DNA from: a virus
IMG/VR virus record: IMGVR_UViG_3300027823_000001
Span: 36,096-100,095 of that record
Direction: 5' to 3' (one strand)
Length of the DNA: 64,000 nt
Below the pieces are notes generated by a model. The model was not told where the DNA came from. It made no database searches and worked only from the letters and a program-made list of their open reading frames with translations. Positions 18,423 through 38,733 of this stretch are shown one piece after another. The number at the start of each line of letters is the position of its first letter. The first letter of the stretch is position 1. The position numbers and the translations under genes were made by a program.

Positions 18423-21179
18423 ATGCCTGAACGCGCGAACCCGTCTCTGCAACTCCCTGGCTACAGTGCTGGGGGCGACATCCCTGGCCAGGCGAAGCAC
18501 GCAGCTACGCGAGCCGCACAGGGACGCGGCGAGATGGGCGCCGAGCAAGCCGAGGCGAACCGTCTCTTTCGCACGCACGAAGCAGACGAGTACACCGCGC
18601 CGCTCGCGCGCCGAGCACGCACCCCGGAAGATGTGACCGCAGGGCTTGGACTCGATCTAGTGACCGAGCGACGCGTTCAGCAGATCGTGACCGAGCAGCG
18701 CGCCGACTTCAGCAAGAAGGGCGCGACTCAGCGATCGTTCCTCGCAGCGAATGGGCTGGTCGAGACGCTACGCCGCATTGACGTGCCTGCTGATACGCGG
18801 ATGGAGATCACCAAGCGAGCGCGCGCGTTCTGGCAGAACACGCAGCCCACGGACTACTCGAAGGAGCCGACAGTGCGCGCACGACAAGGGACGCAGATGC
18901 GAAGTAACGCGAAGGTACACAAGAGCGGTGTGCGCTACGTGCGCCCGTTGTCGAAGGCCCTGCCCAACAAGAAGCCCGCCTTCGCGCCACCCGCCCCCGT
19001 GCCAGGCGGCGGTGCTGCGAAGCCTCCGCCGTTGCCCTCACCCGCTCCTGCGATGGCCGCACCCGCCTCCGCTGCGAACGTGCGACAGCCTCCCTCTGGC
19101 TATGCGCCGATCCCGAACAGCAAGATCGGCGGCTACAGGATGAAGGCCGCGAAGGGCTGGACGTACTGGTACCCAGGGGCAGGCCTCACGAGCACGCCGC
19201 ATCCGGCCGACGCCGGCAAGGCTCGCGCACAGCGTGCCGCAGGTGAGTCAGCTGCCCCTGTGAAGGCAGGCAAGGGCGCCAAGCCGCCGAAGCCAGCCGC
19301 TGGGCCTCCTGGCGCGCCCGCTGCACCTACGCAGGCTGGTGCCGGGCCTCCGGCCCCCGCAGGACCTCCCGCAGCTCCTGGGGGCGCCCCGAAGCCTCCT
19401 GCTGCACCGCCACACCCCGCAGGCGCCGCACCTCCGCAGGCTGGTGCAGCTCCTCCGCAGGCTGGTGCAGCTCCTGGACCTTCGGGCGGAGCGCCGCAGG
19501 CAGCAGGGGCGCCGCAGGCAACAGGTCCGTCGAAGGCGAACGCGCAAGCGCAGGTCACCAAGGATCACACGGGCGAGAAGCGGCAGTTCCATCCGGAGGT
19601 GCAGGCGCACACGCCTGCTGGCAAAGAGAACGATCAACAGCATCACGCTGACGAGTTCCAGCGCCATCGCGCCGAGAGGGCGGCGGCGATGCGCGGCGGC
19701 GATCAAGAGAAGGCGAAGGCGCACACGTTTGCGATGAACTTCCACGCGGACAAGCACAACCGCTTGCGAGCTGCATCGCAAGGCAAAGACTACAAGCCGA
19801 AGGGCACCTACCCAGGGGCGGACGCTGGCGAGGACGGCATGGGTGGTGGTGCCGATACCGTCGCTGCGTCGTACGACCGCGCAGGCAAGCCGGGCAAGGA
19901 CGGCAAGTCGAGCAGCGCAGCCGATCCTCGTGAGCGCTTCGTGCCCGAGAGCAAGAGCGTCAGTCAGATGCGCGAGACGTTGGGCAAGGCAGTCAACATC
20001 ATGGCGGACCTCTCGCAGGCACACGATCACCTGTCGGCACTCAAGGCGAAGCGCTTGGAGGCGAAGCGCAGCGGGCATCCGCTCGCGCGACGCATGATCT
20101 CGCAGATCGATGCAGAGGTGGCTGCGACCAAACACGACATCGTGCAGCTAGAAGACGCACACGGGCACGCCATGAAGGAAGTGCTCGCGCATCAGTCGCT
20201 GCTGCGCAACGAGCGCATCCGTGCAAACCCGATCTTCCGGGCGTTCATGAATGCGATGCAGTCGCTCTCAGGACTCTCGGACAAGATCGGCGCGAAGCTC
20301 GGCGAGAAGGCAGGGCAAGCGCTGGAAGGCGCAAAGGGTGCCGTCGAAGACTTCAAGAACCGAGGCGCCAAGGCAGAGCAAGACGCAGCGCGCGGTCAGC
20401 TCGATTCGTCGCTCGCGGCTGCCGGCGAAGGGGACGATCCCGAGAACGGTGAGGTGAAGCCGCTCGGCGTGACCAAGGACGACATCGCGGCGCAGTACGG
20501 CGACCCCGAAGCAGAAGAGCAAGGGCAGGCACGCACCGCGGAAGCGATGGACGTGCTGAAGAAGCTCGGACAGGCGCAGGGCGATGAGCCGCAAGATGCA
20601 AGCGCAGATGACGTGGAATCGATACCCGACGACGAAGCTGCCGCGGCTGGTGGAGACGACGCAGGCGGCGAGAGCGAAGCCGACGGTGCGATCAAAGACA
20701 TCTTCGGCATGCGGGACCAGCGCGAGCAGCAAGGCGCCGCGAACAAGCAGCGCGCCGAGGAGAGTGCGGGCTTCGATCGCGAACTCGCATCGGCGCGCAA
20801 CAAGCGTGACGCGATCGAGCAGAAGGCCGCGGCGCAGGCTGACCATTTCGAGCAGCGCAACAAGGGTCGCAGCGAGAAGAGCGTGATGCGTGAGTCGCTC
20901 GGCGGCGGCGACGAAGACACGCAGGTCGCATCGGGCGTGCGCAAGAAGCAGGCGCCTTCAACGCGAGAGCAGAGCACCGTCTCCGTCACAGGTGCGAAGC
21001 GCAAGCAAGCCGTCGCCGTCGAGAAGAGCATGCGACTCGTGAAGAGCGCGCAGTGGCAAGCGGTGATGCGTCTCGCGCCCAAGCTTGATAACACGCTGCG
21101 CAAGAGCACGCGCTACGTCGCACCGCTCGCCCACGTCGCGCGTGCACCCATGACGTTCCTCGATCTCTACGGAGGCTGA
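18423..21179 (+). CDS. large low-complexity putative internal head protein
   Basis: 918 aa; Pro/Ala-rich, coiled-coil and acidic segments; several hydrophobic-x-K(S/A) sites; GGY..GWxYWYP module. Confidence 0.75.
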   Translation: MPERANPSLQLPGYSAGGDIPGQAKHAATRAAQGRGEMGAEQAEANRLFRTHEADEYTAPLARRARTPEDVTAGLGLDLVTERRVQQIVTEQRADFSKKGATQRSFLAANGLVETLRRIDVPADTRMEITKRARAFWQNTQPTDYSKEPTVRARQGTQMRSNAKVHKSGVRYVRPLSKALPNKKPAFAPPAPVPGGGAAKPPPLPSPAPAMAAPASAANVRQPPSGYAPIPNSKIGGYRMKAAKGWTYWYPGAGLTSTPHPADAGKARAQRAAGESAAPVKAGKGAKPPKPAAGPPGAPAAPTQAGAGPPAPAGPPAAPGGAPKPPAAPPHPAGAAPPQAGAAPPQAGAAPGPSGGAPQAAGAPQATGPSKANAQAQVTKDHTGEKRQFHPEVQAHTPAGKENDQQHHADEFQRHRAERAAAMRGGDQEKAKAHTFAMNFHADKHNRLRAASQGKDYKPKGTYPGADAGEDGMGGGADTVAASYDRAGKPGKDGKSSSAADPRERFVPESKSVSQMRETLGKAVNIMADLSQAHDHLSALKAKRLEAKRSGHPLARRMISQIDAEVAATKHDIVQLEDAHGHAMKEVLAHQSLLRNERIRANPIFRAFMNAMQSLSGLSDKIGAKLGEKAGQALEGAKGAVEDFKNRGAKAEQDAARGQLDSSLAAAGEGDDPENGEVKPLGVTKDDIAAQYGDPEAEEQGQARTAEAMDVLKKLGQAQGDEPQDASADDVESIPDDEAAAAGGDDAGGESEADGAIKDIFGMRDQREQQGAANKQRAEESAGFDRELASARNKRDAIEQKAAAQADHFEQRNKGRSEKSVMRESLGGGDEDTQVASGVRKKQAPSTREQSTVSVTGAKRKQAVAVEKSMRLVKSAQWQAVMRLAPKLDNTLRKSTRYVAPLAHVARAPMTFLDLYGG
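19431..19475 (+). repeat. 21-bp tandem repeat (PPQAGAA x2)
   Basis: CCTCCGCAGGCTGGTGCAGCT occurs twice in tandem. Confidence 0.9.
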
Positions 21180-21184
21180 TCGCG

Positions 21185-21619
21185 ATGGCTCGCAAGCACA
21201 CGCTCAAGCTCGCAGCTCACGTCGAGATCGAACGTGGGCTTCGCAGCATCTACGGCAAGAGCAAAGCCTTCGGCGGCAGCGGTGCAGGTGCTACTCCGGC
21301 ACCCTACGATCCGATCCCCGACTACCAGGACATCTGGTATCAGCCCGACGGCGATCCTCGCAAAGAAGATGAGACAGCGGCGCGCCTGAATCGGCGCAAG
21401 GCAGTGAGCGTCGCGAACAAGGGCAAGTACGGCTTCCATGGCACTGCCGACGCGAACGACACTCCCATCCTCCGCTACGATGCAGAGGACTATCCGCAGA
21501 ACGAGATCCAGCGCGCGCCGAGCCCCAACCGACGGCGTGAAGTCATCGTGACGCCGAACAAGTACCCTCAGACGCTCAAGACAGGCCCGATCAAGCACTC
21601 GATCCCCAAGGGGAAGTGA
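21185..21619 (+). CDS. hypothetical head-module protein
   Basis: GGAGG RBS. Confidence 0.7.
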   Translation: MARKHTLKLAAHVEIERGLRSIYGKSKAFGGSGAGATPAPYDPIPDYQDIWYQPDGDPRKEDETAARLNRRKAVSVANKGKYGFHGTADANDTPILRYDAEDYPQNEIQRAPSPNRRREVIVTPNKYPQTLKTGPIKHSIPKGK

Positions 21620-21645
21620 CATGCCCGTGGTAGGATGGTGACCGC

Positions 21646-23733
21646 ATGGATCTCAACGACATCCCGACGCTCGAACTCGACGTAGAAGAGCCCCTCGACA
21701 AGGGCGATGCGCGTGGTGGGAAATACTACCGTCGCATCCCCAAGGCAGGGGGAGGCTACCGCTACTTCTACACGAAGGCAGCGTACGAGAAAGAGCACGG
21801 GCCCAGCGCACATCTGCATGGGCCCGAGGTGCAACAGCACCGCTTCGATGCTCACGTCGCCACGCCGCACTGGCCCGAGGGCGGAACAAGTCAGCTCGAC
21901 GGCGCTCGGTTCCTCTCCGAGGCCACGCACGCGATGAAAATCAAGGACTACAAGAAGACGAACGAACTCGCCGCGCGCGTGACGCAGCTGCTCGCGCACG
22001 GGGCGCCTGATGGTGTGGTGGACGACGAGAAGTCGTTGCGCAGTGCGTGGCGCAAGCTCAATCCCGGTAGCACGAAGGACGATCTGAACGAGGCCATCGA
22101 TCTCGCCCGCGGCATCCACAAGGGGCAGCGCTTCGTCGTCAGCTCCGATCTGTTCTTCAAGGCCGCAGGTCACAAGTACATCTCGCGCAAGCCGGACGGC
22201 AAGGGCGGCTGGGTCTACAGCTACGCGGACGATGGCGAGCAGATCAAGATCGCAAGCAAGAGGGCGCCATTCGACATCAAGACCCGCGACGGCACCGAGA
22301 GCCGCGAGGGCGTGCACGCTGGCGACTACGCACTGCATCGCGAGAAGGGCTACGGTGGGATGCGGTATCACGTGACTCACAAGCCTTCTGGGATGTCCGT
22401 GGACAGCTCGTTCCATCGCGGTGAGGGTGAAGCCCTACTGCACCATTTCGCGGACCACGGTGGGGGGATCGGCGCAGACATCTCGAACGAAGACCAGCGC
22501 AAGATCACTGCGGCGAAGGTCAGCTTCAAGCACGACTTCGACCACAGGGATGCAAGCAAGCATCGGCGCGCGCCCAAGCTGGAAGCGGGCGAGGCTGTGA
22601 AGTCGATGAGAGGAGAGCGCATGACGAACCTGTCGAAGGGCGCAGGCCACAAGTACACGTCGAAGAAGGCCGATGGACGCGGAGGCTACACGTACATCTA
22701 CGCGCACCCCGAGAGCGGTGAGCAAGTACGGGTGAACACCCACGACGCGCGCGTCAGCAACGACGGGCCTACCACCTTCGCGCATCACCACGTCGATCAG
22801 AAGATCGGGACTGCCGGCGCGCAGATCACCGGGTCAGAGGCGGAGCCTCGACTCCGCGTGGGAGGTGCCGCCGGCACGAGCGATCCACACATTCACTCGA
22901 TGCTCATCGACGCTGCGAAGGACCATCACAAGAGGGCCCTCGCGCAGAGCGCGAAGCGAGCAGCCAAGCAGGGCATGTTCACAACGAAGAAGTCGATGCA
23001 ACACGAAGGAGAGACTGAGATGATGGAGAGCACCCCCCACCTGCGAGCGCAGGTGAAGATGGTCATCGAGCAGATGGATCCGCTGGCGAAGGGCATCTAC
23101 GCCTTCGAGGGCGGCATGAACCAAGCGCCCAAGATCCCCGACGAGTATCTGCTCGCCTACCTCGATGCGTTCATCGAGGAGGCGTTTGAGCACGAGCGCC
23201 GCGAGAAGGGTCACGACGAGAACGCTGTAGTGGTCGGCATCTCGCAGCCTGAGGTCGGCAGTGCAAACGGTGGCATCGGCGGAGACTCCGCCGACTACTG
23301 GGCGCAGTGGGTGTTAAACGAACTCATCACGTACTGCGGCAAGAACGCGAACCTCATGCGCGCCGTCGAGAAGGCGCACGCGAACAAGGACTTCGTGGCG
23401 TCACGGCTGCGCGCGATGGGCCTCGTGAAGCCGTCGATGAACGGTGGCGAGGTCAACGGCGACTTCATGGAGGGCTACCAGTACAGCGAGCAGCAGACCG
23501 CCGCGGGGATCGGCAAGTCGGTCGGCTACGATCGCGGTGCGTTCTCGACCAGCGATGAGTTGCACAAGGCGCTCGAACGCACGCAGAGCATCCGCGCCGA
23601 GGAAGAGGCGACGGTCAAGCTGGAAGACGACGGGATCAACCCGATCGAGATGCTAGCCAACGTCCACCGCGCGCGCTTCAACCTCATGGAGGATGTCTTC
23701 GGGATCGATCTCGGCATGAAGGCGAAGCGCTGA
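21646..23733 (+). CDS. putative internal head polyprotein with three KY...GG.Y.Y modules
   Basis: modules at 21721, 22171 and 22648, each just after LDKG, FFKA or LSKG. Confidence 0.75.
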   Translation: MDLNDIPTLELDVEEPLDKGDARGGKYYRRIPKAGGGYRYFYTKAAYEKEHGPSAHLHGPEVQQHRFDAHVATPHWPEGGTSQLDGARFLSEATHAMKIKDYKKTNELAARVTQLLAHGAPDGVVDDEKSLRSAWRKLNPGSTKDDLNEAIDLARGIHKGQRFVVSSDLFFKAAGHKYISRKPDGKGGWVYSYADDGEQIKIASKRAPFDIKTRDGTESREGVHAGDYALHREKGYGGMRYHVTHKPSGMSVDSSFHRGEGEALLHHFADHGGGIGADISNEDQRKITAAKVSFKHDFDHRDASKHRRAPKLEAGEAVKSMRGERMTNLSKGAGHKYTSKKADGRGGYTYIYAHPESGEQVRVNTHDARVSNDGPTTFAHHHVDQKIGTAGAQITGSEAEPRLRVGGAAGTSDPHIHSMLIDAAKDHHKRALAQSAKRAAKQGMFTTKKSMQHEGETEMMESTPHLRAQVKMVIEQMDPLAKGIYAFEGGMNQAPKIPDEYLLAYLDAFIEEAFEHERREKGHDENAVVVGISQPEVGSANGGIGGDSADYWAQWVLNELITYCGKNANLMRAVEKAHANKDFVASRLRAMGLVKPSMNGGEVNGDFMEGYQYSEQQTAAGIGKSVGYDRGAFSTSDELHKALERTQSIRAEEEATVKLEDDGINPIEMLANVHRARFNLMEDVFGIDLGMKAKR

Positions 23734-23759
23734 AGCGCGAGAGGCTGTAGGCTCCGCAC

Positions 23760-25547
23760 ATGGGATTCTTCGACGACATCCGTTCCGGCATCGGTGGCGC
23801 CTTCCGCAACCTCGGCGACTCGCTGGGAGGCGGAGGCTCTGACGTGTCTGCCGAGGACATGCAGAAGGCCATGGCAGGCGCAGGGCTCGCCGCAGACGGA
23901 TCTGGCGGCATGCCCGAGCCGACTGACGAGAAGCCACGCGCTCTCTTCCACGACCCTTACAGCGTCGTCGACTGGGGCGGATGGCGCGAGCGTCCATCGT
24001 CTCTGACGTACGAGACGCTGCGTCAGATGACGCTGAAGAACACCGTGATCGCTGCGCTGATCACGCTGCGCTGCAATCAGGTCGCGCAGTTCGCACGCCC
24101 GCAGCAAGGGAAGTACGATCGCGGCTATCGCGTGATCAAGCGAGACAGGCGCGACCGCTGGAAGAGCATGACGCCCGTCGAGCAGAAGCGGGCGAACGCG
24201 ATCGAGCGGATGATCGAGACCACTGGCATTCTCGGCGACGACGAGCGCGCAGCGGACCGCGACAGCTTCGCGCTTTTCTGCAAGAAGGCCGTGCGCGACA
24301 TCCTCACTTACGACCAGTGGTGCTTCGAGAAGCAGCGCGACCGTCGTGGGATGGTCTCACGCTTCATCGCACTGCCGAGTGAGACGCTGCGCCCCGCAGT
24401 GGCGGATACCGAGCACCTCAGCGCGGAAGACCTGCACTCACGCGTGGCCTACGTGCAGGTCTACGAAGACTCTGTGATCGCCGAGTTCTCTCCCGAGGAT
24501 CTTGCGTGGTGCATCATGAACCCGCGCAGCGATCTGCGCGTGAACGGCTTCGGCTTCTCGCCTGTCGAACAGCTAATGCATCTGGTGACCGCGTGGTTGT
24601 TCGGGTTCGAATACAACCAGCGCTTCTTCTCGCAGGGCTCGGCGATCAAAGGCATCCTGAACATCAAGGGCGCCATTCCCGATCGGCAGCTCCGCGCGTT
24701 CCGACGCATGTGGTACTCCCAGGTGACCGGCGTCACGAACGCGTGGCGCACTCCCATCTTGAACTCCGAAGACATCCAGTGGCAGTCGCTGCATTCGACG
24801 AACCGTGAGATGGAGTTCAGCTCGTGGATGGACTGGCTGACCAAGCTCACATGCGCGGTGTACGGAGCCGATCCCGTCGAGATCAACTTCCAGTTCGGCA
24901 ACACGGGGCAGTCGCATTCCATGAACGAGGGTAAGCAGGAATCGAAGCTCACCGAGTCGAAGGACAAGGGACTGCGCCCGCTGATGGACCACATCACGGA
25001 GAACCTGAATCGTCATCTCGTGTGGGAGATCGAGGAAGACTTCGAGTTCGCGTACGTGGGCCTCGACTCCGGCGATGAGGAGAAGGAGCGTGAAGCGCGT
25101 ATCAAGGAAGTGGGCGCCTACCGCATGGTCGATGAGGTGCGCGCGGATGACGAGCTACCTCCGCTCGCGGACGGCATGGGCCAGTGCGTGAACAATCCGA
25201 CGTGGCTCCAGTTCTCGCAGGCGAAGCAGCAAGAGAAGCAGGCGGCTGATCAGCAGGCCGCTGCCGCCGCAGGTATGGATCCTGGGGCAGCCGCGCCACC
25301 TGGAGGGTCTGCCGGCGGACCGGACGGGTTCGAGGGCACAGACGACGACGATGGCGCGCCAGAGCCGCCTGATGAGGAAGAGCTGCAAGCGGGTGACGTG
25401 GACGACGAGATGCCCCCTGAGGCACAGCTCGAACGTGCCATGCGCAACGTGCGCGATGTGGATCGCCTGCTGAAGAGCGTGTCTCGCCGCAAGTCGCGAG
25501 GTAGGATGCTGATCGAAGTCGATCTGGACGAAGGAGACCTGCGATGA
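23760..25547 (+). CDS. portal protein
   Basis: NPRSD...GFGFSPVE, YNQRFFSQG..KGIL, REMEFSSW, CAVYGADPVEINF, SKDKGLRPL (Herelleviridae-like portal). Confidence 0.93.
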   Translation: MGFFDDIRSGIGGAFRNLGDSLGGGGSDVSAEDMQKAMAGAGLAADGSGGMPEPTDEKPRALFHDPYSVVDWGGWRERPSSLTYETLRQMTLKNTVIAALITLRCNQVAQFARPQQGKYDRGYRVIKRDRRDRWKSMTPVEQKRANAIERMIETTGILGDDERAADRDSFALFCKKAVRDILTYDQWCFEKQRDRRGMVSRFIALPSETLRPAVADTEHLSAEDLHSRVAYVQVYEDSVIAEFSPEDLAWCIMNPRSDLRVNGFGFSPVEQLMHLVTAWLFGFEYNQRFFSQGSAIKGILNIKGAIPDRQLRAFRRMWYSQVTGVTNAWRTPILNSEDIQWQSLHSTNREMEFSSWMDWLTKLTCAVYGADPVEINFQFGNTGQSHSMNEGKQESKLTESKDKGLRPLMDHITENLNRHLVWEIEEDFEFAYVGLDSGDEEKEREARIKEVGAYRMVDEVRADDELPPLADGMGQCVNNPTWLQFSQAKQQEKQAADQQAAAAAGMDPGAAAPPGGSAGGPDGFEGTDDDDGAPEPPDEEELQAGDVDDEMPPEAQLERAMRNVRDVDRLLKSVSRRKSRGRMLIEVDLDEGDLR

Positions 25548-25957
25548 GCTTGCGTACGAAGGTAGACATTCAGGTCGCCGTCGGGTTCGACAACGACCTG
25601 GACGACACGGGGTTCGAGCGCGCACTCACCGAACTGCTCGACACCACCGAGCGCTTGGTGACGCAGACGATCTCGCTGGCCGCAGCCGAGACCGACTACG
25701 AGGTCAGCTTCGCCGACGTGGCCGAAGCGCGACTGATCTACATCGAGGCCGACGGTGCGTTGACGTACCGCATCGGCTTCAACGGATCGGAGCGCGCACT
25801 GGTGCCGATGGCCCCTACCGCGAGTACGCAGCTCTCGACGCTCAAGGCGTACTCGCTTGCGACCGAGGTCGCCGCGCCGCCCCTCTACCTCACCAACCCG
25901 AGCAGTACCGACGCCCGCAAGGTGAAGGTATGTATCGTCGGCGACCTCACGACGTGA
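25544..25957 (+). CDS. putative virion protein
   Basis: ATGA-coupled to the portal gene; AAGGAG RBS. Confidence 0.65.
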   Translation: MSLRTKVDIQVAVGFDNDLDDTGFERALTELLDTTERLVTQTISLAAAETDYEVSFADVAEARLIYIEADGALTYRIGFNGSERALVPMAPTASTQLSTLKAYSLATEVAAPPLYLTNPSSTDARKVKVCIVGDLTT

Positions 25958-25960
25958 TCG

Positions 25961-27775
25961 GTGAACGAACCCAACGAGCACAAGCCTGGATGTGAGCCAG
26001 GGTGCGAGCACGATCACTCAGCGGGTCGTGCGCGGGTACGCATCGACGCGCCTGAAGGCACTGACCCGCTGTTGCTCGCGCAGGTCGTGCTTGGTCGGCA
26101 GTGGTTGGTGAAGGCGGAGCGCCGAGAGAGCGACAACCCGTTCGAGGTGCACAAGCCGCTTGGTGAGATGTACGATCTCGCCGTTGGTGAGTACCGCGCG
26201 CAGTACACGCGCATGCTCGCGCGCATCGATCGTTACGTCGCGCGGCACACGACGTTGACCAAGGCGACGCGCCAGCGCGCGCTGTTCACGGTGACACAGC
26301 TTCAGGAGCTGGCGCAGATCATCCGCGACCACCACACGGCGATCGCAATCGGCTTCTTCGGTGAGACGAGCGTGCCTCCCGCTGAAGTGCAGCGACTCGT
26401 TGCGATGAACATTCTCCCCAAGGCTGCGCTTGGGATCATCGACGACGCGTTCGCGTACGGGCAGCTGCTCGCAGCTATCAACGCGCAAGTGGAGCGCGGC
26501 GTCACGCGCATCCCCGAGATGACTCTGACCAACATCAAGAAACGCTTGAAGTCACGCCCGCTGCCACTCACCACAGGTGAGGAGATGGCGCGTGAGTGGG
26601 CACGTCAGAGCGCAGCCACGCACGTTCGCGGGCTCGGCAACCGCGTCGCTCACGACTTCGAGACAACGGCGATCGAAGCAGACCGCGCGTTGCAGCAACG
26701 GATGCAGAACGCAATACGAGAGACGCTCGACGCGAACATCGAGCGCGCCGAGACGTGGCGCAAGCTCAAGAGCGACCTCGGACACAAGACCGACGACTGG
26801 GCTCGCGACTTCGGGCGGATCGCCGCGACTGAGAAGACGCGAGCGATGCAGGAGGGGCAGGTGCAAGCGCTGGTCAAGCGCGAAGGCGACCCGAAGCACG
26901 TGCTCGTCGCGAAGATCCCGACGCCCGCTGCGTGTGACCACTGCGTGCGCCTGCATCTCACATCAGGCGTAGGCTCACGCCCCCGCGTCTTCCGGCTCGC
27001 TGACTTGCAGTCGAACGGCTCGAACGTAGGGCGCAAAGCGCGTGAGTGGAAAGCCGTTGTCGGGCCCACGCATCCGTGGTGCGAGTGCGCGTTGGTGCAT
27101 GTACCGGAGGGCTGGGGCTTCGACTCGACAGGCAACCTCGTACCCAAGCGCGCGCGCAAGTCGTGGACGCTGGACCACGATCTGAGCAAGGCGCTCTCCT
27201 ACGGTGACTCGGTGCCCGAAGCGCTCACGGTGCGCGTCGGCGATCCTGAACGCCTCGCGGTGATCGATGATGTGATCGCGCGGACACCGAAGACACTGTT
27301 CACGCGCAAGACGGGCGTCACGCTCATCACCACCGATCACCCGACGCAGAACTCACACCTCGACGATCACGACTTCGCGTACTGGACAGGTAACGAGATC
27401 CGCTTGATGCAAAACCTCCCGCTGGAGAAGCTGAGGGCAGTGCTCGAACACGAGATCGGGCACACGCCGAACGTCTATCTGTTCCACAGGTTCGGCAGCA
27501 TCGCGAAGGTGCGCGCGTGGCACGAGCATCTCTTCAAGATCGGCAACGAAGAGGGTCACGTCAGCGACTATGCATCGAAGCTCGCGATCGAGTGCGCTGC
27601 TGAGGTCACGAGGATGTACCTCTACGACCGCGCAAACCTCATGTTGAACTTCCCGCGGCAGTTCACGTGGGTCCATCGCTACTACAAGCCGCTCATCCGA
27701 CGCGTCTCGCAGCGCACGATGCCGAACCCCGCAGCGACGCAGCTACTACCCAAGCAAGCGAGGCTCGACCAATGA
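25961..27775 (+). CDS. MuF-like head morphogenesis protein fused to a zincin metallopeptidase
   Basis: RIAATE, ACDHC and HPWCEC (MuF); then LSKA; then HEIGH...SDYA...E.AAE. Confidence 0.8.
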   Translation: MNEPNEHKPGCEPGCEHDHSAGRARVRIDAPEGTDPLLLAQVVLGRQWLVKAERRESDNPFEVHKPLGEMYDLAVGEYRAQYTRMLARIDRYVARHTTLTKATRQRALFTVTQLQELAQIIRDHHTAIAIGFFGETSVPPAEVQRLVAMNILPKAALGIIDDAFAYGQLLAAINAQVERGVTRIPEMTLTNIKKRLKSRPLPLTTGEEMAREWARQSAATHVRGLGNRVAHDFETTAIEADRALQQRMQNAIRETLDANIERAETWRKLKSDLGHKTDDWARDFGRIAATEKTRAMQEGQVQALVKREGDPKHVLVAKIPTPAACDHCVRLHLTSGVGSRPRVFRLADLQSNGSNVGRKAREWKAVVGPTHPWCECALVHVPEGWGFDSTGNLVPKRARKSWTLDHDLSKALSYGDSVPEALTVRVGDPERLAVIDDVIARTPKTLFTRKTGVTLITTDHPTQNSHLDDHDFAYWTGNEIRLMQNLPLEKLRAVLEHEIGHTPNVYLFHRFGSIAKVRAWHEHLFKIGNEEGHVSDYASKLAIECAAEVTRMYLYDRANLMLNFPRQFTWVHRYYKPLIRRVSQRTMPNPAATQLLPKQARLDQ

Positions 27776-30700
27776 GGTACATCATTCCTGAGCTGGCCAA
27801 AGCAGCTCGCAAGCTGCACGGGCGCTGCGAAGTGCACGGCATGCAGATCAGCATCGAGAACGCGAAGGGCTCGACGCGACACTGGTACGACGAGCACGAC
27901 AACGAGACGGGCTCGACGCTCATGTCCAACGACTACGGCTACATCCGCGGCACGCTCGGCATCGATGCCAATCACGTCGATGCCTACGTCGGTCCGTACC
28001 CTGAGAGTACGACCGTCTTCATCGTGACTCAGATGCGGAAGCCCGACTTCTCGGAGGTCGATGAACAGAAAGTCATGCTCGGCTTCCACAGCGCGAAGAA
28101 GGCGAAGGCCGCATACCTCGCGCACTACGACGACGCGCGCTTCTTCGGCAGCATGAAGGCGATGAACGTTCAAGCGTTCAAGCGGAAGGTGTTCGACAGG
28201 AACAACCACGGCGGCCTCGTGAAGGCCGTCTCCCACAAGTACACCTCCAAGAAGGCTGACGGTAAGGGAGGCTGGACCTACGAGTACGCTCCAGGCTCGC
28301 GCGAGCACGTGAGCGCTGCAATGGACGCGATCGAGGCGAAGCACGGCGTGTCGTTGAGCGTGGGCCATCATCAAGGCGATGTGCTGACGCTCTCCAAGGT
28401 CGTCGTTCCGAAAGAGCTGCGCAGTACAGGCATCGGATCGAAGGTCATGCAGGAGCTGCACGAGTACGCCGACAAGCACGGCAAGACTGTCGCGCTCACA
28501 CCATCGTCAGACTTCGGAGGCAGCAAGGCGCGCCTTCGCGAGTTCTACAAGAGGCACGGTTACGTGGACAACAAGGGACGCAACAAAGACTTCGCGATCA
28601 GCGACGCGATGTATCGACCTCTCGCGAAAGCACGCATGACCATCGGCGCGCTCGCGTTGTTCTCCAAAGCCAACATGCCTCCCGGTAGTGGCTGGACCGC
28701 GATCCCCGGAGGCAAACGCGGCGGCTACCGCAAGCGCAAAGGTGCAGGCTGGGACTACTGGTATCCCGATGGCCACACCCACGAGGCCTCGCCGCCGAAG
28801 TACAGCGATGCCGACTTCAGCAACGGCGCGTTCGACAAGGATGCGACGCACTGGAAGTGGAAGCAGACCAACGGCGAGCTGAAGGCGTGGACCGCAGGGG
28901 GCATCGACCCTCAGTCACACGCCCCCGTGAAGACAGGCGGGCGCTTCGCGAAGCTCTACCAGATCCACGTTGCAGAAGACCCGAAGCACCCTGGCTTCGC
29001 GGTGCTTAAGGACGTGACGACGGGCGAGCTGACCATGATGCAGCACAACCGCATCTACCCCGTCGAGTATGGTCTGCCGAGCAAGCGGGTCCAGGCGCCT
29101 CCAGAGGGCCCCAAGGCGCCGTGGGTGCCTGGTACGTCAGGCGCAACCGTGAGGCCGTCCAGCGGGCGCGCAGCGGCCGGCAAGAGGGCTCCTGTGTTCG
29201 AGGGCTCGCGGGCGAACGAAGGAACTGGCCTGCACGCGATCGAGACCGGCGTCTATCCGATGGCATCGATCGAGCGCTGGGAGATGCAGGAGGACGGCAC
29301 CAAGAAGAAGATCAAGCTGGAAGCGATCGGCGTGCCCGACCACGGCAAGAACCTGCTGGTGAAAGAGTTCGAGCCGTTGATCGCAGGCACGGCCAAAACC
29401 ATCGCGAAGAAGTACGCACTTCAGATGCAGTACGAACGTGGCACCCGCGGGCAACACTCGACGAACGTCACGCTCGCAGAGCTTCAGCGCGCAGGTATCG
29501 AAGGCATGCTGGACGCGATCGAGCGCTACGACGCGAAGGGACCGTTCGCTTCGCACGCGAGGCAGTTCGTGACCGATCACATCAGACTCGCAGCTGCGCG
29601 CGAACGACTCGGCGGTGTGACTCTGCCTATGCGGCACCAGCGCAACCTCGGGCGGTACATCGCAGCACGCGCACAAGCGTCGAAGGACCTCGGTGTGGAT
29701 GACCCGTCACCCGATCAGGTGGCGCCGTACTTCAGGCTGCTCAAGAGGCACCTGCATCCTCAGCTCTCAGGCGCGCAGGCCAACGAAGCGGTGCCTGCGT
29801 CCGCCTACAAGATCGCAGCCGCGCACGAGGGTACGCCTGGAGCCGTGAAGCGCTCGACGGGTGAGCGCACTGGCGATCAGCCCGCACACGTTCAGCGGGA
29901 CACGATCACGCATCCCGGCAAGCTCGAATGGACCCACCTCTACGACTCGTTCCTCAAGGGGCAGTCGAGCGCGAGCGAGCTGTTCGATGAGGACAAGTTC
30001 GCGCTGCCTGGTCTCGGCATGGGTCTCGGTTACTCACCAGAGGAGCGCGTCGCGATCCGTCAGTCCGTGCAGGTCGCGCTCGACTCGCTCGCGGACTTCT
30101 CGTTCGCCTCGCCGGGTCGAACGAAGGTCACCTACAAGGGCGATGCGGGAGAGATGCTGACGCTGCGTCTCGGGCTGCGCGGCGACGACGAGATGAGCGT
30201 CGCGCAGATCGCGAGCCAAGTGCCCATCTTCGCGAACGGTAAGCAGCTCGGGCAGCGTGCGGCCGAAGGCGCCGTTGCTGAGATGCTTGAACACGCAGTG
30301 GAGCACGCGCGCGAAGCAACCATCGGTCGCGACGCGAAGGTGTTGATGGAGCGCGCAGAAGAGCGCCTCGTTGCGCCTGTCGAGGTTCCCCACGGACCGA
30401 CGTGGCACGAAGTCGTGCGCAAGCGCGCCGATGCGGTGACGCCTCAGCAGGTCGCGGAGTACCGCGGCGCAGAGAAGGCACGCCTCGGTGACTTGCTCTC
30501 GCGTTCGCAAGAGCGCGCAGACCAAGCGCGCGAGAGCGACAAGGCCATGCACGCGCTGTCACTGCGTGGCGCGCAGGAAGCCATGCGCCGCATCGAGCGC
30601 ATGGGCGAGGACGAGATCCGACTCAAGATCGCGCAGCGCCCTTCGCCCGAGACGGCGGAGATGCGGCGGCTCATGACGCAGAGCGTGGCAGTGGACATGC

Positions 30701-31002
30701 CCGCGCCGCGAGGTCGCGAGTACGGACACGCGATGATGACCATGACCGACCTCGGCACGGGCGCGCAGCGCAACGTCAGAGTGCGAACGCTGCGCGACCT
30801 CCGGCACGCAGAGGACCGCGAGTTGGAGAAGTCGGAGCGCGCGAAGTCAGATGCTACGCTCACCACCGGCATGCTCCACGAAGCTATCAACTTCCCCCGC
30901 ACCATGAGGCTGCTCGTAGCCCCTGATGCACAGCTTGCGTCCGCGCCCACGATCGCGCGCCGCACCGTGGAACTTCTCTCAGGGCTCGGAGACGTGCGAT
31001 GA
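27772..31002 (+). CDS. polyvalent protein: InPase-like + GNAT acetyltransferase + sigma70-like domain
   Basis: ISIEN.KGS.R, YGYIRGT and DEQKVMLGF (InPase); VPKELRSTGIGS...LREFYKRHGY (GNAT); IAKKY...ELQRAGIEGMLDAIERYD...F and LRLGL...MSVAQIA (sigma regions 2 and 4); start moved to ATG 27772. Confidence 0.85.
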   Translation: MRYIIPELAKAARKLHGRCEVHGMQISIENAKGSTRHWYDEHDNETGSTLMSNDYGYIRGTLGIDANHVDAYVGPYPESTTVFIVTQMRKPDFSEVDEQKVMLGFHSAKKAKAAYLAHYDDARFFGSMKAMNVQAFKRKVFDRNNHGGLVKAVSHKYTSKKADGKGGWTYEYAPGSREHVSAAMDAIEAKHGVSLSVGHHQGDVLTLSKVVVPKELRSTGIGSKVMQELHEYADKHGKTVALTPSSDFGGSKARLREFYKRHGYVDNKGRNKDFAISDAMYRPLAKARMTIGALALFSKANMPPGSGWTAIPGGKRGGYRKRKGAGWDYWYPDGHTHEASPPKYSDADFSNGAFDKDATHWKWKQTNGELKAWTAGGIDPQSHAPVKTGGRFAKLYQIHVAEDPKHPGFAVLKDVTTGELTMMQHNRIYPVEYGLPSKRVQAPPEGPKAPWVPGTSGATVRPSSGRAAAGKRAPVFEGSRANEGTGLHAIETGVYPMASIERWEMQEDGTKKKIKLEAIGVPDHGKNLLVKEFEPLIAGTAKTIAKKYALQMQYERGTRGQHSTNVTLAELQRAGIEGMLDAIERYDAKGPFASHARQFVTDHIRLAAARERLGGVTLPMRHQRNLGRYIAARAQASKDLGVDDPSPDQVAPYFRLLKRHLHPQLSGAQANEAVPASAYKIAAAHEGTPGAVKRSTGERTGDQPAHVQRDTITHPGKLEWTHLYDSFLKGQSSASELFDEDKFALPGLGMGLGYSPEERVAIRQSVQVALDSLADFSFASPGRTKVTYKGDAGEMLTLRLGLRGDDEMSVAQIASQVPIFANGKQLGQRAAEGAVAEMLEHAVEHAREATIGRDAKVLMERAEERLVAPVEVPHGPTWHEVVRKRADAVTPQQVAEYRGAEKARLGDLLSRSQERADQARESDKAMHALSLRGAQEAMRRIERMGEDEIRLKIAQRPSPETAEMRRLMTQSVAVDMPAPRGREYGHAMMTMTDLGTGAQRNVRVRTLRDLRHAEDRELEKSERAKSDATLTTGMLHEAINFPRTMRLLVAPDAQLASAPTIARRTVELLSGLGDVR

Positions 31003-31319
31003 ACGCAGCAGACGCAGCGAAGCGCATCTATCATGTGGCGCGGCTCGACGATGAGGGTGACGCTACGTTCGCGTTCAACCTCCGCCGTCGCGACGGCGGA
31101 GGCATCGGCCTCTCGAACATCAAGACGCCGTTGAGCGACACGGAGCGCACCGCGCTCTTCTCGCACTTCGGCGTGAAGCTCAAAGTGCGCACGGGCGGCA
31201 CCTCGGGTGATCTCACTTGGGAAGGCGTTGTCGATCGCGAGCCTGGCACCGACGCTCACTTTCTGGCGGCAGCGCACTCGCTGCCCGATCCCTTCTGCCT
31301 CGTCTCCTCGGAGGACTGA
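30999..31319 (+). CDS. hypothetical protein
   Basis: ATGA-coupled; GGAG RBS. Confidence 0.65.
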   Translation: MNAADAAKRIYHVARLDDEGDATFAFNLRRRDGGGIGLSNIKTPLSDTERTALFSHFGVKLKVRTGGTSGDLTWEGVVDREPGTDAHFLAAAHSLPDPFCLVSSED

Positions 31320-31324
31320 CCGCG

Positions 31325-34300
31325 ATGAAGTACGTGATTCCCACTCGGCGACTCGGCGTCACCGAAGACGTGCTTGAGAAGGCCCACGCTCAGGGCTTCA
31401 ATCGGGCCACGGGCGGCAGCTCCGGCGCGCACAAGTACATCAAGAGGGAGTTCCTTGGCTTCCTCAACGGTCGGGTGCGCTACCGCTACTGGTACGCGGA
31501 CGACGTGCAGCGCGAGCGAGGGTCGAAGGCGGTCGAAGGCACCGCCGAGAGCGTCACGACTTCGCATCACGAGCATGAACTGCTCGGCAACATCCACAAG
31601 CTCTTCAAGAACCTCGCGAAGAATCGAGTGAAGGCGAGCGAGGTTACGGAGGAGTCTCTCTCTCGTGCGCTCGGTTGGGATGGCGCGAAGGTGCATCTGC
31701 ATCCTGACTTCCTGCGCAAGTACCACGCGCCGTTCGTGGCGAAAGAAAAAGAAGACGCGGACGCGGAGCCTGATCGCTTCGCGCTCGCGCGTGTCTACCG
31801 CGCGTTCCAGATGATCCCCGAGCCGATGCGCGCGCTGATCGGGGACGATCAGCTCATGAACCTCGTGATCACGACGCGCAGTGATCCTGATGAGGTCGAG
31901 CTGGCTCGCGATCGAGGATGGGACGAACCTCCCGCAGGCTGGTCGAGCGGCACGAAGGGTGAAGTGCATCTGCTCGGCGATGGCGAGCCTGGCTTCGGTG
32001 AAGGCCGTGGCTTCACTGCCGCACCCGTCGGCCGCCCACGCTTCGGTTCACGCTTCACCTGGACCGAAGAAGTGGTGTGGCATGAACTCGGGCATCAGCT
32101 ACACGACAAGCTGATCGGCGAGAAGAGCCCCATCTGGGACGAGTGGAAGGCCCTCTCGCTCAAAGACCCTCAGCGCATCTCCGACTACGCGTTCACCAAC
32201 GAGAAGGAGGACTGGGCCGAATCCGTTGCGTGCATGATCTCGCGACCGAAGCAGATGGCGAGGCAGTGCCCCGCTCGCTACGAGTTCTTCCGCAAGCACG
32301 GCCTCATTCCCGGACCAGCACTCAATCGGATGCTCAAGGTGCCCGAAGAGGAGGGGCGCTGGTGGGACCTGAAGGACACGCCGAAGGCTGCGAAGATCAT
32401 CGGCGAGCAACGCGAGGCAGATGGTCAGCCGAGCTACGTCGGCGCGTACCGCAGCGAGAAGGATCAGTTCTACACCGTGCACTACAAGGGGCGCGCGGTG
32501 TTCTTCCGCCTCGGACCTCCCGACAAGGAAACGGAGATGCAGGGCTGGGATGAGATCCCGCCGACGATCGATCCTGAGACGCAGCTGCCTGTCTACGACA
32601 CGCAGGTCGCAAACCGCTTCCGCGCGCAGGACATCTACAAAGAGATCTACGACGATCGCGGGAACGCGCTGACGCCGCAGCAAGCGCTGCTTTTCCTTCG
32701 CCAAGACGACGAAGACTTCAACGCGAAGATCCCCGACGACCACATGTCGTGGGAGCCGTCCGAGATGGACACGCATCTCGGACGTGTGCTCTTCTCCAAG
32801 CTCGGTGAGAATCGAGGCGAGCAGTCGAAGGAGCGCGAGCGCGTCGCCAAGCTGCGCGCCAAGGGCTCCGATCCCGGAGAGGAGCGCCACGCTTGGGCAC
32901 CGCTGGCGATGTCGCAGTCGGAGTTCGAGGCACTCACTCCCACGTTCAAGTTCAACGAGATCCGCAAGGCCGCAGAGCAGCCGCTGCTCAAGCGTGCGTA
33001 CGACCGCAAACTCAAGCGCCCCGTCACGGTCACTGCGCACAACCCCATCACAGGCAAGGTGGAGCCTGTTCGTTCGGCGACGATCTACGAGACGCAGAAT
33101 CCCGATGGAACCAAGACCAAGATCACGGTGAACGAGTCAGAGCCCTTCGTGCCCAGCGGCACGATGCTCGTGCCCGTGACTGCTACGCGCCGCGAGACCT
33201 CCGGTGTGGAGACGGTGGAGCAGCACTGGGTGAAGTACCGTATCCAGCCCGACGGCAAGCTCACGCCCGAAGAGAAGCCGTGGGAGTGGCAGCCCAAGAA
33301 GAACGGGCGCGGCATGAAGAAGGTCGCGACGGGTACGTGGCCAGAGATGCGATGGGATCGCTTGGAGCCCGCAAAGCTCGCGCGCGATCTCGGGACCACG
33401 GCGGAGATGCTGCTGCATCGCAATGGCAAGGTGGAGTCGGGACAGATACTCGATCCCATGCTCGCGAAGCTGATCAATCCGCTCGGTGAGCGCATCCGAT
33501 CCGAAGGCGATCTCGTGCGCCTCATGCGCGAGGCTGCGAAGGGGCAGGCCAGCACTTGGGTCACCGTGCAGACGGGCACGGATAAGCATCCGAGCTACGC
33601 GCACATGAAGCTCACGTTCGACGGCGGTGGTAACCCACTACTCGCGGGTGAGTATTGGAATCGCATCCTCGGCGTCGAGCAAGCGCGCGTCGATTCGCTG
33701 CTCGATGCGAAGAACCTCTTGAGCGTCGAAGGTGTGCAAGAGGTCATGCCGTTCTTCCACAGCTTCGTACCGAGCGCGCTCGTGAAGTACAAAGATCCGA
33801 CGGCCGAGCGCTGGGTCTACGGTGAGATCGTCGAGGTGAAGGACGCGGGCCGCGATGAGCCTGCGACGTACCGCGTGCAGCCGCTGAAGGGTCAAGGTAC
33901 TGGCCTCACCAAGATGGCTCGTGTGACCACGAAGGACATGGAATCCGCATCGAGCGCTGTCGATCGTGATGACGTGTCTCGCATTCGTCGCGACGTGCAG
34001 CCGATGAAGAACCATCTGCTGCTCTACGGAGACAACCTGCGCTTCGACCAGGACGGCTCGCTGCGCGGCGGCACGGTGCGTCTCAAGCTGCCCAGTGACG
34101 GCACCATCACACCTGATGAGATCCGCCGCTTCCCTGCGGTGCGCTCCGACGAAAACGGTATCTACGTCGATCTGCGGGACATCAACTCTCTACGTGAAGA
34201 GTTCGGCGGCTTCGTGATGGACACGCACGTCCAGACACTGCTCGACGATCTGATGAAGACCGAGAAGCGCAACGCAGAGCGCGCCATGACGAAGGACGTG

Positions 34301-38618: not shown

Positions 38619-38678
38619 CGGTGCGGATGATCATCAGTCATAACTCCGACGTGGCCTAGCTCACTCGGTGAGCAGCAG

Positions 38679-38711
38679 AGGCGCGGACCTGAAAGGGCTC
38701 CGCGCCTTTTT
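38679..38711 (+). terminator. terminator-like hairpin before the protease gene
   Basis: AGGCGCGGA...TCCGCGCCT stem, GAAA loop, TTTTT. Confidence 0.7.
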
Positions 38712-38733
38712 CGTTTCGGAGCAGCAAAAAACG

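What the first reader, a model, noticed from the sequence alone, without database searches (positions are those of the whole stretch)
19098..31498. Shared Tyr/Gly/Lys module at the new N-termini of predicted cleavage products
Seven copies occur in four ORFs. Type A: KYYRRIPKAGGGYRYFY (21721), HKYISRKPDGKGGWVYSY (22171), HKYTSKKADGRGGYTYIY (22648), HKYTSKKADGKGGWTYEY (28234), HKYIKREFLGFLNGRVRYRYWY (31430). Type B: GYAPIPNSKIGGYRMKAAKGWTYWYP (19098), GWTAIPGGKRGGYRKRKGAGWDYWYP (28690). Five start within about 7 residues after a K|(A/G) site, and the other two within about 16 and 47. They precede unrelated cargo (GNAT, sigma, peptidase/SNF2, unknown domains). A basic, aromatic beta-hairpin reused this way suggests a modular tag for DNA tethering or ejection through the portal. 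I cannot assign it to a named family.
Basis: partly seen in the sequence, partly recalled or inferred. Interest (0 to 1): 0.8.

Follow-up and report, generated by a model that had tools for sequence, protein, structure and literature searches.

The report
Cut-site plus hairpin tag on phage cargo
A short basic, tyrosine-rich beta-hairpin that almost always follows a likely head-protease cut site marks the start of cargo units in large proteins packed into the heads of a big group of uncultured phages; it has no family name, and it could explain how injected phage proteins are cut apart and handled.

Summary
All seven copies sit at the stated coordinates, in four head-module ORFs of a complete 100-kb phage genome, and nowhere else in it. 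The same module (H-K-Y-x-x-R/K-x-P-x-x-x-G-G-W/Y-x-Y-x-Y, plus variants) occurs in at least 119 IMG/VR stretches against about 1 expected by chance. It also occurs in 912 protein clusters of a 1.84-billion-protein library. Pfam, NCBIfam and PDB sequences have no match.

AlphaFold2 predicts a two-stranded hairpin (pLDDT about 90) for both type A and type B.

In other genomes, 241 of 251 internal copies have [LIVMF]-x-K-[AGS] within 16 residues upstream. [quoted passage not shown] In the homologous Listeria phage A511 it matches the annotated maturation cut (DALK|S).

Carriers are polyvalent cargo proteins (InPase, GNAT, ddrB-ParB, SNF2, methylases, Zeta toxin, ART, SAM lyase). Portal, MuF, protease and capsid proteins never carry it.

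My reading: a cut-and-tag cassette marks unit starts in head-packaged polyproteins, and the retained basic hairpin is a DNA or capsid docking handle. The anatomy is solid. Cleavage and tag function are inferred. The same scan noted related features, but only on this same genome.

The parts
19098..19175 (+). Type B hairpin module in the 918-aa Pro/Ala-rich protein
   Evidence: Located. The equivalent type B copy at 28690 is modelled as a hairpin. Homologues of this protein carry a type A hairpin at the same relative position.
21721..21771 (+). Type A hairpin (GKYYRR subtype) near the N-terminus of the 695-aa protein
   Evidence: E 6e-7 with an external profile. The same subtype heads Leptospira phage LE1 gp26.
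22171..22224 (+). Type A hairpin, copy 2 of the 695-aa protein
   Evidence: E 7e-16. AlphaFold2 hairpin with strands 27-32 and 38-42 and pLDDT about 92.
22648..22701 (+). Type A hairpin, copy 3 of the 695-aa protein
   Evidence: E 2e-11.
28234..28287 (+). Type A hairpin between the InPase and GNAT domains of the 1076-aa polyvalent protein
   Evidence: E 4e-11. It lies in the low-confidence linker between two folded domains.
28690..28767 (+). Type B hairpin after the GNAT domain
   Evidence: AlphaFold2 strands 319-323 and 326-330 with pLDDT 88-94. 17 type B instances in other proteins.
31430..31495 (+). Long-loop type A hairpin near the N-terminus of the 2253-aa HExxH + SNF2 protein
   Evidence: Weak with the fixed-loop profile, but 22-residue long-loop variants of the same shape occur elsewhere.
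18948..18959 (+). LSK|A tetrad, 47 residues before the type B copy
21694..21705 (+). LDK|G tetrad ending a 19-residue N-terminal leader
   Evidence: A homologous leader is seen in P0010.
22153..22164 (+). FFK|A tetrad, 3 residues before hairpin copy 2
22630..22641 (+). LSK|G tetrad, 3 residues before hairpin copy 3
28216..28227 (+). LVK|A tetrad between InPase and the hairpin
   Evidence: It lies in a low-pLDDT linker.
28660..28671 (+). FSK|A tetrad, 7 residues before the type B hairpin
   Evidence: It lies in a low-pLDDT linker.
31373..31384 (+). LEK|A tetrad ending the MKYVIP... leader
18423..21179 (+). Carrier 1: 918-aa protein between terminase and portal
   Evidence: no Pfam hit. Its N-terminal domain is conserved in other hairpin carriers.
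21646..23733 (+). Carrier 2: 695-aa protein with three hairpins
27772..31002 (+). Carrier 3: polyvalent protein with InPase, GNAT and a long unknown region
   Evidence: PF18823 E 8.5e-35 and GNAT. PHROG matches include a DarB-like family.
31325..38086 (+). Carrier 4: 2253-aa protein with an HELGH motif and an SNF2 helicase
   Evidence: SNF2-rel_dom E 7.5e-16, ResIII and Helicase_C. phrog_62.
38668..39582 (+). Head maturation protease, the candidate enzyme for the K| cuts
   Evidence: phrog_1028 E 1.7e-41. 33% identity and E 5e-26 to the A511 protease. Homologue present in 33 of 40 carrier genomes.
39602..40615 (+). Probable scaffold, densest in hydrophobic-x-K-[AGS] tetrads
   Evidence: 8 tetrads, 2.37 per 100 aa, against 0-0.3 in most tail-region ORFs (two small ones reach about 1.0 and 1.5). 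The scaffold role is inferred from gene position only.
40669..42075 (+). Major capsid protein, with the LRK|A tetrad at 40747-40758
   Evidence: phrog_752 E 3e-82. The tetrad is conserved at the N-terminus in almost all aligned full-length homologues. A511 Cps homologue with an annotated mature end.
23760..25547 (+). Portal protein (no hairpin)
   Evidence: PF04860. 0 of 28 portal homologues carry a hairpin.
25961..27775 (+). MuF/head-morphogenesis-like protein with an HEIGH motif (no hairpin)
   Evidence: Weak phrog_2468 match. 0 of 31 homologues carry a hairpin.

Best explanation
The module is the start signal of a cargo unit in head-packaged polyvalent polyproteins. Each unit begins with three parts: a short leader or spacer ending in hydrophobic-x-Lys; a small residue (A/G/S) where the head maturation protease cuts; and, 2-10 residues later, a basic, tyrosine/tryptophan-rich two-stranded beta-hairpin of 18-26 residues.

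After the polyprotein is built into the prohead, the protease cuts at these sites. Each freed cargo domain then keeps the hairpin close to its new N-terminus. The hairpin carries a net charge of about +3 and one aromatic face. It most likely acts as a docking handle for a polyanionic partner inside the head, with packaged DNA first and the acidic inner capsid or scaffold surface second. That would keep the fragments in the head so that they leave with the DNA.

Shown here: the module, its spread, its tight link to the tetrad, the hairpin prediction, and its restriction to cargo proteins of one capsid/protease lineage. Inferred: that the tetrad is cut here, that the hairpin is retained, and what it binds.
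For: - Module and spread.
- Hairpin fold.
- Link to the tetrad in other genomes: 65 of 73 against a background of 6.8+-2.5. 241 of 251 internal copies have it, against 6 of 12 copies that sit at a native N-terminus. This fits a tag that needs a nearby free end, made either by translation start or by cutting.
- The tetrad as a protease site. It sits at a conserved capsid-protein N-terminal position in almost all aligned full-length homologues. The A511 cps mat_peptide starts after DALK|S, and the A511 capsid protein and protease are homologous to the window's (E 8e-36 and 5e-26). The tetrads are densest in the scaffold and the protease itself. InPase units are bounded by the same site, and leaderless homologues start at or next to the predicted first residue after the cut. 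In the model the sites fall in low-confidence interdomain linkers.
- Cargo nature: polyvalent-protein domains. 0 of 131 ORFs homologous to portal, MuF, protease, capsid or terminase carry a hairpin.
- Head context: 68 of 119 loci have a head gene nearby. A capsid homologue is in 35 of 40 carrier genomes and a protease homologue in 33 of 40, against 782 of 50,697 deposited phages with this capsid type.
- Basic character: +3.17+-1.8, against +0.27 for the background.
- Selection on the protein: synonymous differences between copies.
Against: - No experiment on any carrier. Among 50,697 deposited phages only Leptospira phage LE1 has the module.
- The cut is transferred from A511 by homology and position, not by a residue-level alignment of the propeptides. 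The BLAST alignment starts about 20 residues after the site.
- LE1 has the module but no detectable phrog_1028 protease.
- Many units, for example InPase, follow the same site without any hairpin. The tag is therefore optional, and its role cannot be packaging in general.
- Nothing here separates DNA binding from protein docking.
- Type B copies often have K-P-P directly upstream, which is a poor cut site.
Confidence: 0.45

Rival explanations
1. The hairpin is an encapsidation signal. It binds the scaffold, portal or inner capsid surface and brings the uncut polyprotein into the prohead. Several copies per protein would add avidity, in the way encapsulin cargo-loading peptides bind an HK97-fold shell.
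For: Strict co-occurrence with one capsid/protease lineage. Restricted to cargo proteins. Precedents for N-terminal capsid-targeting signals exist in T4 and in P1 DarB (PMC9024508).
Against: Targeting has to happen before the protease acts, so it does not explain why internal copies almost always sit just after a cut site. InPase units with the same leader and site lack the hairpin, so the discarded leader is the better candidate for targeting.
Confidence: 0.25
2. The hairpin is a substrate-presentation element on the primed side of the cut. It docks on the protease or next to it, so that the upstream linker of a folded multidomain protein is cut efficiently. Site and hairpin would be one processing cassette with no later role.
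For: 96% coupling of site and hairpin, with preferred spacings of 4 and 9-10 residues.
Against: The capsid-protein, protease and scaffold sites and the InPase unit sites have no hairpin. Hairpins also occur at native N-termini with no cut site upstream (6 of 12).
Confidence: 0.15
3. The tetrads are cut by the zincin-like peptidases encoded in the same module (HEIGH at 25961-27775, HELGH at 31325-38086). This is the processing route proposed for polyvalent proteins in general. Or they are not cut at all, and the conserved K-[AGS] is simply part of the folded motif.
For: Iyer et al. 2017 propose MPTase processing of polyvalent proteins (PMC5512222). Two HExxH proteins lie in the module.
Against: The same tetrad marks the capsid-protein maturation site, which in A511 is annotated as cut. 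Neither HExxH protein matches a peptidase family at significant E-values. The variable K-to-H spacing and the leaderless homologues argue for a boundary and against a structural residue.
Confidence: 0.1

Closest known systems
Polyvalent proteins of phages (Iyer, Burroughs, Anand, de Souza, Aravind 2017, PMC5512222)
   Same: The carriers are polyvalent proteins. InPase (PF18823), GNAT, ddrB-ParB, LPD1, ART-PolyVal and SNF2 occur in one polypeptide, encoded among head genes and predicted to be packaged and injected.
   Different: The paper's main text, searched by keyword and not read in full, describes no such short interdomain module in the passages returned, and it proposes zincin MPTases as the processing enzymes. 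Here the unit boundaries carry the capsid maturation protease tetrad plus a hairpin that is in no Pfam or NCBIfam model.
T4 capsid targeting sequence of the internal proteins (Mullaney and Black 1996, as cited in PMC9024508)
   Same: A short N-terminal signal on non-structural proteins that are packed in the head and injected, followed by a prohead-protease consensus cut. The internal proteins are basic.
   Different: The T4 signal is removed by the cut (L/I-x-E|). Here the conserved hairpin lies after the cut and is predicted to stay on the cargo. It is also repeated inside polyproteins. The discarded leader (M-R/K-Y-V/I-I-P...hydrophobic-x-K|) is the closer analogue of the T4 signal.
P1 DarB N-terminal packaging signal (Gonzales et al. 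2022, PMC9024508)
   Same: A roughly 2250-residue helicase-type polyvalent anti-restriction protein is directed to the capsid by its first 30 residues. The window's 2253-aa SNF2 protein has leader, site and hairpin within its first 60 residues.
   Different: That paper reports no consensus among Dar protein N-termini. No hairpin module was detected in deposited phages other than LE1, so it was not detected in P1 either.
Maturation cut of the SPO1/A511-type major capsid protein
   Same: Homologous capsid protein and protease. The A511 record annotates the mature Cps as starting after DALK|S. The window's capsid protein has NLRK|A at the matching N-terminal position.
   Different: A511 and the other Herelleviridae hits show no hairpin module. 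Using the same cut rule to process cargo polyproteins is inferred here and is not known for A511.
Choline-binding / cell-wall-binding aromatic hairpin repeats (PF01473)
   Same: Hairpins of about 20 residues with G-x-W/Y-Y-Y type aromatic faces. This family appeared among the nearest structural look-alikes.
   Different: No Pfam match even at E of 10 or below. The context is different, and the resemblance is shape only.

Membership tests
Phage polyvalent proteins (Iyer et al. 2017) | Two or more domains of disparate biochemical activity in one polypeptide, including domains typical of the class | tested here: met
   InPase PF18823 (E 8.5e-35) plus GNAT in 27772-31002, and an HExxH region plus SNF2 in 31325-38086. 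Carriers elsewhere hold ddrB-ParB, LPD1, ART-PolyVal, Zeta_toxin, methylases and SAM lyase.
Phage polyvalent proteins (Iyer et al. 2017) | Encoded among virion/late genes in phages | tested here: met
   Gene order is terminase, carriers, portal, MuF-like, carriers, protease, scaffold, capsid. 68 of 119 foreign loci hold a head gene.
Phage polyvalent proteins (Iyer et al. 2017) | Delivered into the host with the DNA | not testable with these tools
   Needs virion proteomics and injection assays.
T4-type capsid targeting sequence | Signal lies before the protease cut and is removed | tested here: not met
   The hairpin lies 2-10 residues after the tetrad in 241 of 251 internal copies. Only the leader before the site fits this feature.
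T4-type capsid targeting sequence | Sufficient to load a foreign protein into the head | not testable with these tools
   Experimental.
Substrates of the SPO1/A511-type head maturation protease | Cut site of the form hydrophobic-(x)-Lys | small residue, as at the capsid-protein propeptide | tested here: inconclusive
   The sequence rule is met and agrees with the A511 mat_peptide. Cleavage itself is not shown for this phage.
Any curated protein family (Pfam-A, NCBIfam) or solved structure | Significant profile match of the module | tested here: not met
   No Pfam hit at E of 10 or below for 8 module segments. No NCBIfam hit. In PDB sequences only chance-level lamin matches at E of about 0.6-0.9.
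Choline-binding repeat (PF01473) | Match to the family profile | tested here: not met
   No hit. Only a shape resemblance.

The most novel reading that the evidence does not exclude
A whole, largely uncultured phage clade builds its injected arsenal as polyproteins made of standard units: leader, head-protease cut site, basic aromatic hairpin tag, cargo. The hairpin, together with a sister G-P-Y-I-G-P-R-G-G-K-W tag, would be a general portable signal that keeps each freed enzyme on the packaged DNA or at the exit channel, so that it is co-injected. That would make it a natural, transferable address label for delivering proteins through a phage.
Probability: 0.3. Interest if true: 0.8.

Novelty: new variant of a known kind. 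Interest (0 to 1): 0.66.

Why it matters
How phages choose, process and eject the non-structural proteins they inject (anti-restriction enzymes, toxins, transcription factors) is known for only a few model phages. In P1, no shared sequence rule was found.

Here a simple and very widespread sequence rule marks unit boundaries and unit starts in such proteins. It gives three things:
- A way to predict mature injected products from sequence alone in hundreds of uncultured phages.
- A concrete alternative to the proposed zincin processing of polyvalent proteins.
- A short candidate tag that can be tested with peptides, and in the culturable carrier phage LE1, for DNA binding, packaging and delivery of foreign proteins.

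Tried and rejected
Genomic context came instead from an IMG/VR pattern scan and from record-wide searches.
- The A511 paper of Loessner and Scherer 1995 is not held. I used the mat_peptide annotation in the A511 record instead.
- Literature searches for a stated cut rule in Herelleviridae or phi812 found none.
- A search for the motif strings in 8.4 million papers gave only an unrelated plant paper.
- The protein atlas gave no feature hit and only generic hairpin look-alikes.
- The LE1 protease was not detected, either by BLAST of gp22 or by phrog_1028.

Ideas rejected:
- A compositional or chance repeat.
- Recent DNA duplication or a recombination linker acting at DNA level, because of the synonymous differences.
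- The N-terminal strand of one fixed larger domain, because the downstream domains are unrelated.
- A module of conjugative-element polyvalent proteins. No domains specific to conjugative elements were seen, and there were only 12 stretches in 185,579 cellular genomes, about 5 of them expected by chance.
Full report
**What the window is.** The window is 64 kb of a complete 100,095-bp viral genome with direct terminal repeats. It has 63% G+C and almost all genes are on the + strand. The head module reads as follows:
- terminase large subunit, 16069-17790
- a 918-aa Pro/Ala-rich protein, 18423-21179
- a 695-aa protein, 21646-23733
- portal, 23760-25547
- a MuF-like protein with HEIGH, 25961-27775
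- a 1076-aa protein with InPase (PF18823, E 8.5e-35) and GNAT, 27772-31002
- a 2253-aa protein with HELGH and an SNF2 helicase, 31325-38086
- head maturation protease, 38668-39582 (phrog_1028, E 1.7e-41)
- a probable scaffold, 39602-40615
- major capsid protein, 40669-42075 (phrog_752, E 3e-82; about 34% identity to SPO1-like capsid proteins)

InPase is a signature domain of the phage 'polyvalent proteins' of Iyer et al. 2017 (PMC5512222).

**The observation.** All seven peptides are at the stated coordinates, with the stated distances to an upstream K|(A/G). The pentad [WYF]xYxY occurs eight times in all six frames, and seven of those are the copies. The genome has no further copy.

A profile built only from foreign copies recovers the four canonical type A copies at E 6e-7 to 7e-16. 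The long-loop copy at 31430 and the two type B copies are weak under that fixed-loop profile. Each has same-shape relatives elsewhere. Copies differ at many synonymous sites, so the protein is what is conserved.

**Type A and type B are one kind of module.**
- AlphaFold2 on a 78-sequence module alignment gives a two-stranded hairpin. Its strands are K-Y-I-S-R-K and W-V-Y-S-Y, with pLDDT about 92 and disordered flanks.
- In a 345-residue model of the InPase-GNAT protein, the type B copy forms the same hairpin (Y-R-K-R-K / G-W-D-Y-W, pLDDT 88-94). It has a tighter turn and an N-terminal G-W-x-x-I-P extension.
- Homologues of the 918-aa protein carry a type A hairpin where this genome has type B.

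**Spread.**
- A profile search of 5.8 billion proteins found 54 carriers with about 100 copies.
My own estimate of the chance expectation is about 1. These stretches hold 162 copies in 144 ORFs.
- An exhaustive profile search of 1.84 billion cluster representatives gave 912 proteins at E of 1e-3 or below and 148 at 1e-10 or below. They are up to 3,135 aa long and often hold 2-5 copies.
- The same DNA pattern hit only 12 stretches in one genome each of 185,579 prokaryote species, about 5 of them expected by chance, and all are in MAGs.
- Among 50,697 deposited phages, only Leptospira phage LE1 has the module, at the N-terminus of its ParB-domain protein gp26.
- Pfam, NCBIfam and PDB sequences have no match. 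Motif strings are absent from the searchable literature.

**Who carries it.** Carriers hold ddrB-ParB (9 of 37), SNF2 helicases, LPD1, DUF5661, InPase, NUDIX, PAPS reductase, C5 and Eco57I-type methylases, Zeta toxin, ART-PolyVal and SAM lyase. RelA/SpoT and AAA_33 also appear. These are the polyvalent, anti-defence type of cargo.

Among the ORFs in the fetched loci that are homologous to the window's portal (28), MuF-like protein (31), protease (38), capsid protein (29) and terminase (5), none carries a hairpin. 68 of 119 loci have a recognisable head gene within a few kb. Of 40 carrier genomes of about 37 kb or more, 35 have a homologue of this capsid protein, including 12 of the 13 that are at least 90% complete. 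33 have a homologue of this protease. For comparison, 782 of 50,697 deposited phages have this capsid type.

**The link to K|(A/G/S).**
- In 73 unique IMG/VR instances, picked by a pattern that does not include upstream residues, 65 have [LIVMF]-x-K-[AGS] within 14 residues upstream. The background is 6.8+-2.5.
- In 167 representative proteins, 241 of 251 internal copies have it within 16 residues. Preferred K-to-H spacings are 4 and 9-10 residues. Most of the ten exceptions are near-variants.
- Only 6 of 12 copies at a native N-terminus have it. So the hairpin sits near a free N-terminus, one made either by translation start or by a predicted cut.
- In a subset, a second K-[AGS] lies 13 residues further upstream (32 of 202; odds ratio 2.7 for the 10-16 residue window). 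That would bracket a short excised peptide.

**Is the tetrad a real cut site?** Four independent lines point that way.
1. In almost all aligned full-length capsid-protein homologues from carrier genomes, the tetrad sits at one aligned position 25-45 residues from the start. LE1 has it too.
2. The Listeria phage A511 record annotates the mature capsid protein as starting at residue 24, after D-A-L-K|S. The A511 capsid protein and protease are homologous to the window's, at E 8e-36 and 5e-26. The window's N-L-R-K|A lies 20 residues before the first aligned block, and the A511 site lies 18 residues before it.
3. Tetrads are densest in the probable scaffold (2.37 per 100 aa) and in the protease (1.97). 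They are nearly absent from most tail proteins.
4. InPase units in 118 related polyvalent proteins are bounded by the same site, directly before A-R-K-L-H-G-R. This holds whether the unit is internal or follows a 10-22 residue N-terminal leader (M-R/K-Y-V/I-I-P...). Several leaderless homologues start at or next to the predicted first residue after the cut.

In the model, the sites at K151 and at K286/K299 lie in low-confidence linkers between confidently folded domains. None of this is a direct demonstration for this phage.

**Mechanism.** The best-supported reading is a 'cut-and-tag' unit start. Polyvalent polyproteins are built from units made of a leader or spacer, a protease site, an optional N-terminal mini-module, and the cargo domain. 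The head maturation protease separates the units inside the prohead, and the hairpin stays on the cargo.

The hairpin is consistently basic (+3.17+-1.8 against +0.27 for the background; 85% of copies at +2 or above). The 13 residues before the cut are mildly acidic, at -0.8. In my own reading of the hairpin register, W, Y and Y on one strand and Y on the other share one face. I therefore favour a docking handle for packaged DNA or for an acidic inner head surface, acting after the cut. The basic, DNA-associated internal proteins of T4 are the analogy. This last step is inference.

The rivals are these:
- **Encapsidation signal.** This is weakened because targeting must come before cutting, and because tag-less InPase units share the leader and site.
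- **Protease exosite.** This is weakened because capsid, scaffold and InPase sites lack hairpins, and because some hairpins have no site upstream.
- **Processing by the two HExxH proteins of the module.** Neither matches a peptidase family at significant E-values, and the capsid-protein site argues for the head protease.

**Comparison with what is known.** The carriers meet the definition of phage polyvalent proteins. The hairpin is not a T4-type targeting sequence, because it lies after the cut. The discarded leader is the closer analogue. I found no described family for the hairpin.

I class it as a new variant of a known kind: signals and protease processing of head-internal proteins. The features not described before, as far as my searches reach, are a retained and iterated tag, a conserved unit-boundary rule in polyvalent proteins, and at least one sister tag.

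**Limits.**
- There is no experiment on any carrier.
- The 'sigma' cargo label is weak.
- LE1 lacks a detectable protease of this family.
- The lineage association has no matched control.
- The same scan had already noted the processing rule, the triple hairpin and the leader peptide, but only on this same genome and unchecked. I tested the first two against other genomes and the third in part.

Noticed in passing
Related proteins P0004, P0013, P0047, P0191, P0192, P0195, P0197, P0220, P0240 and others; not in the window: A second, very conserved mini-module, G-P-Y/F-I-G-P-R/K-G-G-K-W-A-D-P/A-x-H-T-I-P-W, occurs 41 times in related polyvalent proteins. In most copies it follows a K-[A/G/S] dipeptide directly or within a residue or two, usually with a hydrophobic residue two or three places before the Lys. 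It often shares a protein with HKY hairpins. It looks like a sister unit-start tag.
   Followed up: partly
window 27772-27804 and 31325-31384; P0184-P0230: N-terminal leaders of the form M-R/K-Y-V/I-I-P...hydrophobic-x-K|A precede InPase and other units. Some homologues lack the leader and start at the predicted first residue after the cut. The leader is a candidate removable targeting peptide.
   Followed up: partly
window 39259-39380 (protease residues about 198-238) compared with 40747-40870 (capsid protein residues about 27-67); A511 locus L152 13443-14237 and 15293-15502: After its own hydrophobic-x-K|S site, the protease carries a C-terminal segment that resembles the capsid-protein N-arm just after the capsid cut. 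This is very clear in A511 (K|SWTTGHGTTPDTQ against K|SFTTGYGITPDTQ) and weaker here. It may be how the protease co-assembles with the capsid protein.
   Followed up: partly
window 25961-27775 and 31325-38086: Two HExxH motifs (LEHEIGH and WHELGH) sit in head-module proteins. They are possible zincin peptidases of the polyvalent-protein type, but neither has a significant Pfam or NCBIfam peptidase match.
   Followed up: partly
window 39602-40615: The probable scaffold has 8 hydrophobic-x-K-[AGS] tetrads in 337 residues, the highest density in the window. This fits a scaffold that the protease degrades.
   Followed up: partly
L125 (G036:C1:63328-64734): The capsid-protein homologue in one 147-kb carrier genome has a single in-frame TAG. 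This could be recoding, a sequencing error or a split gene.
   Followed up: no
L164 and L163 (Acidimicrobiia MAG contig CAWAEN010000015.1), L156 (Ignavibacteriota MAG): A few cellular MAG contigs carry multi-copy hairpin genes (5 matches within 3.2 kb in L164). They are likely prophages or binned viral contigs and could point to hosts of this phage group.
   Followed up: no
window 28669-30831: The region after the type B hairpin is conserved as one block of about 600 residues in another carrier (L072, E 2.7e-105). It shows only a weak FliA/WhiG region-2 match (E 0.02), so the sigma-factor reading stays open.
   Followed up: partly
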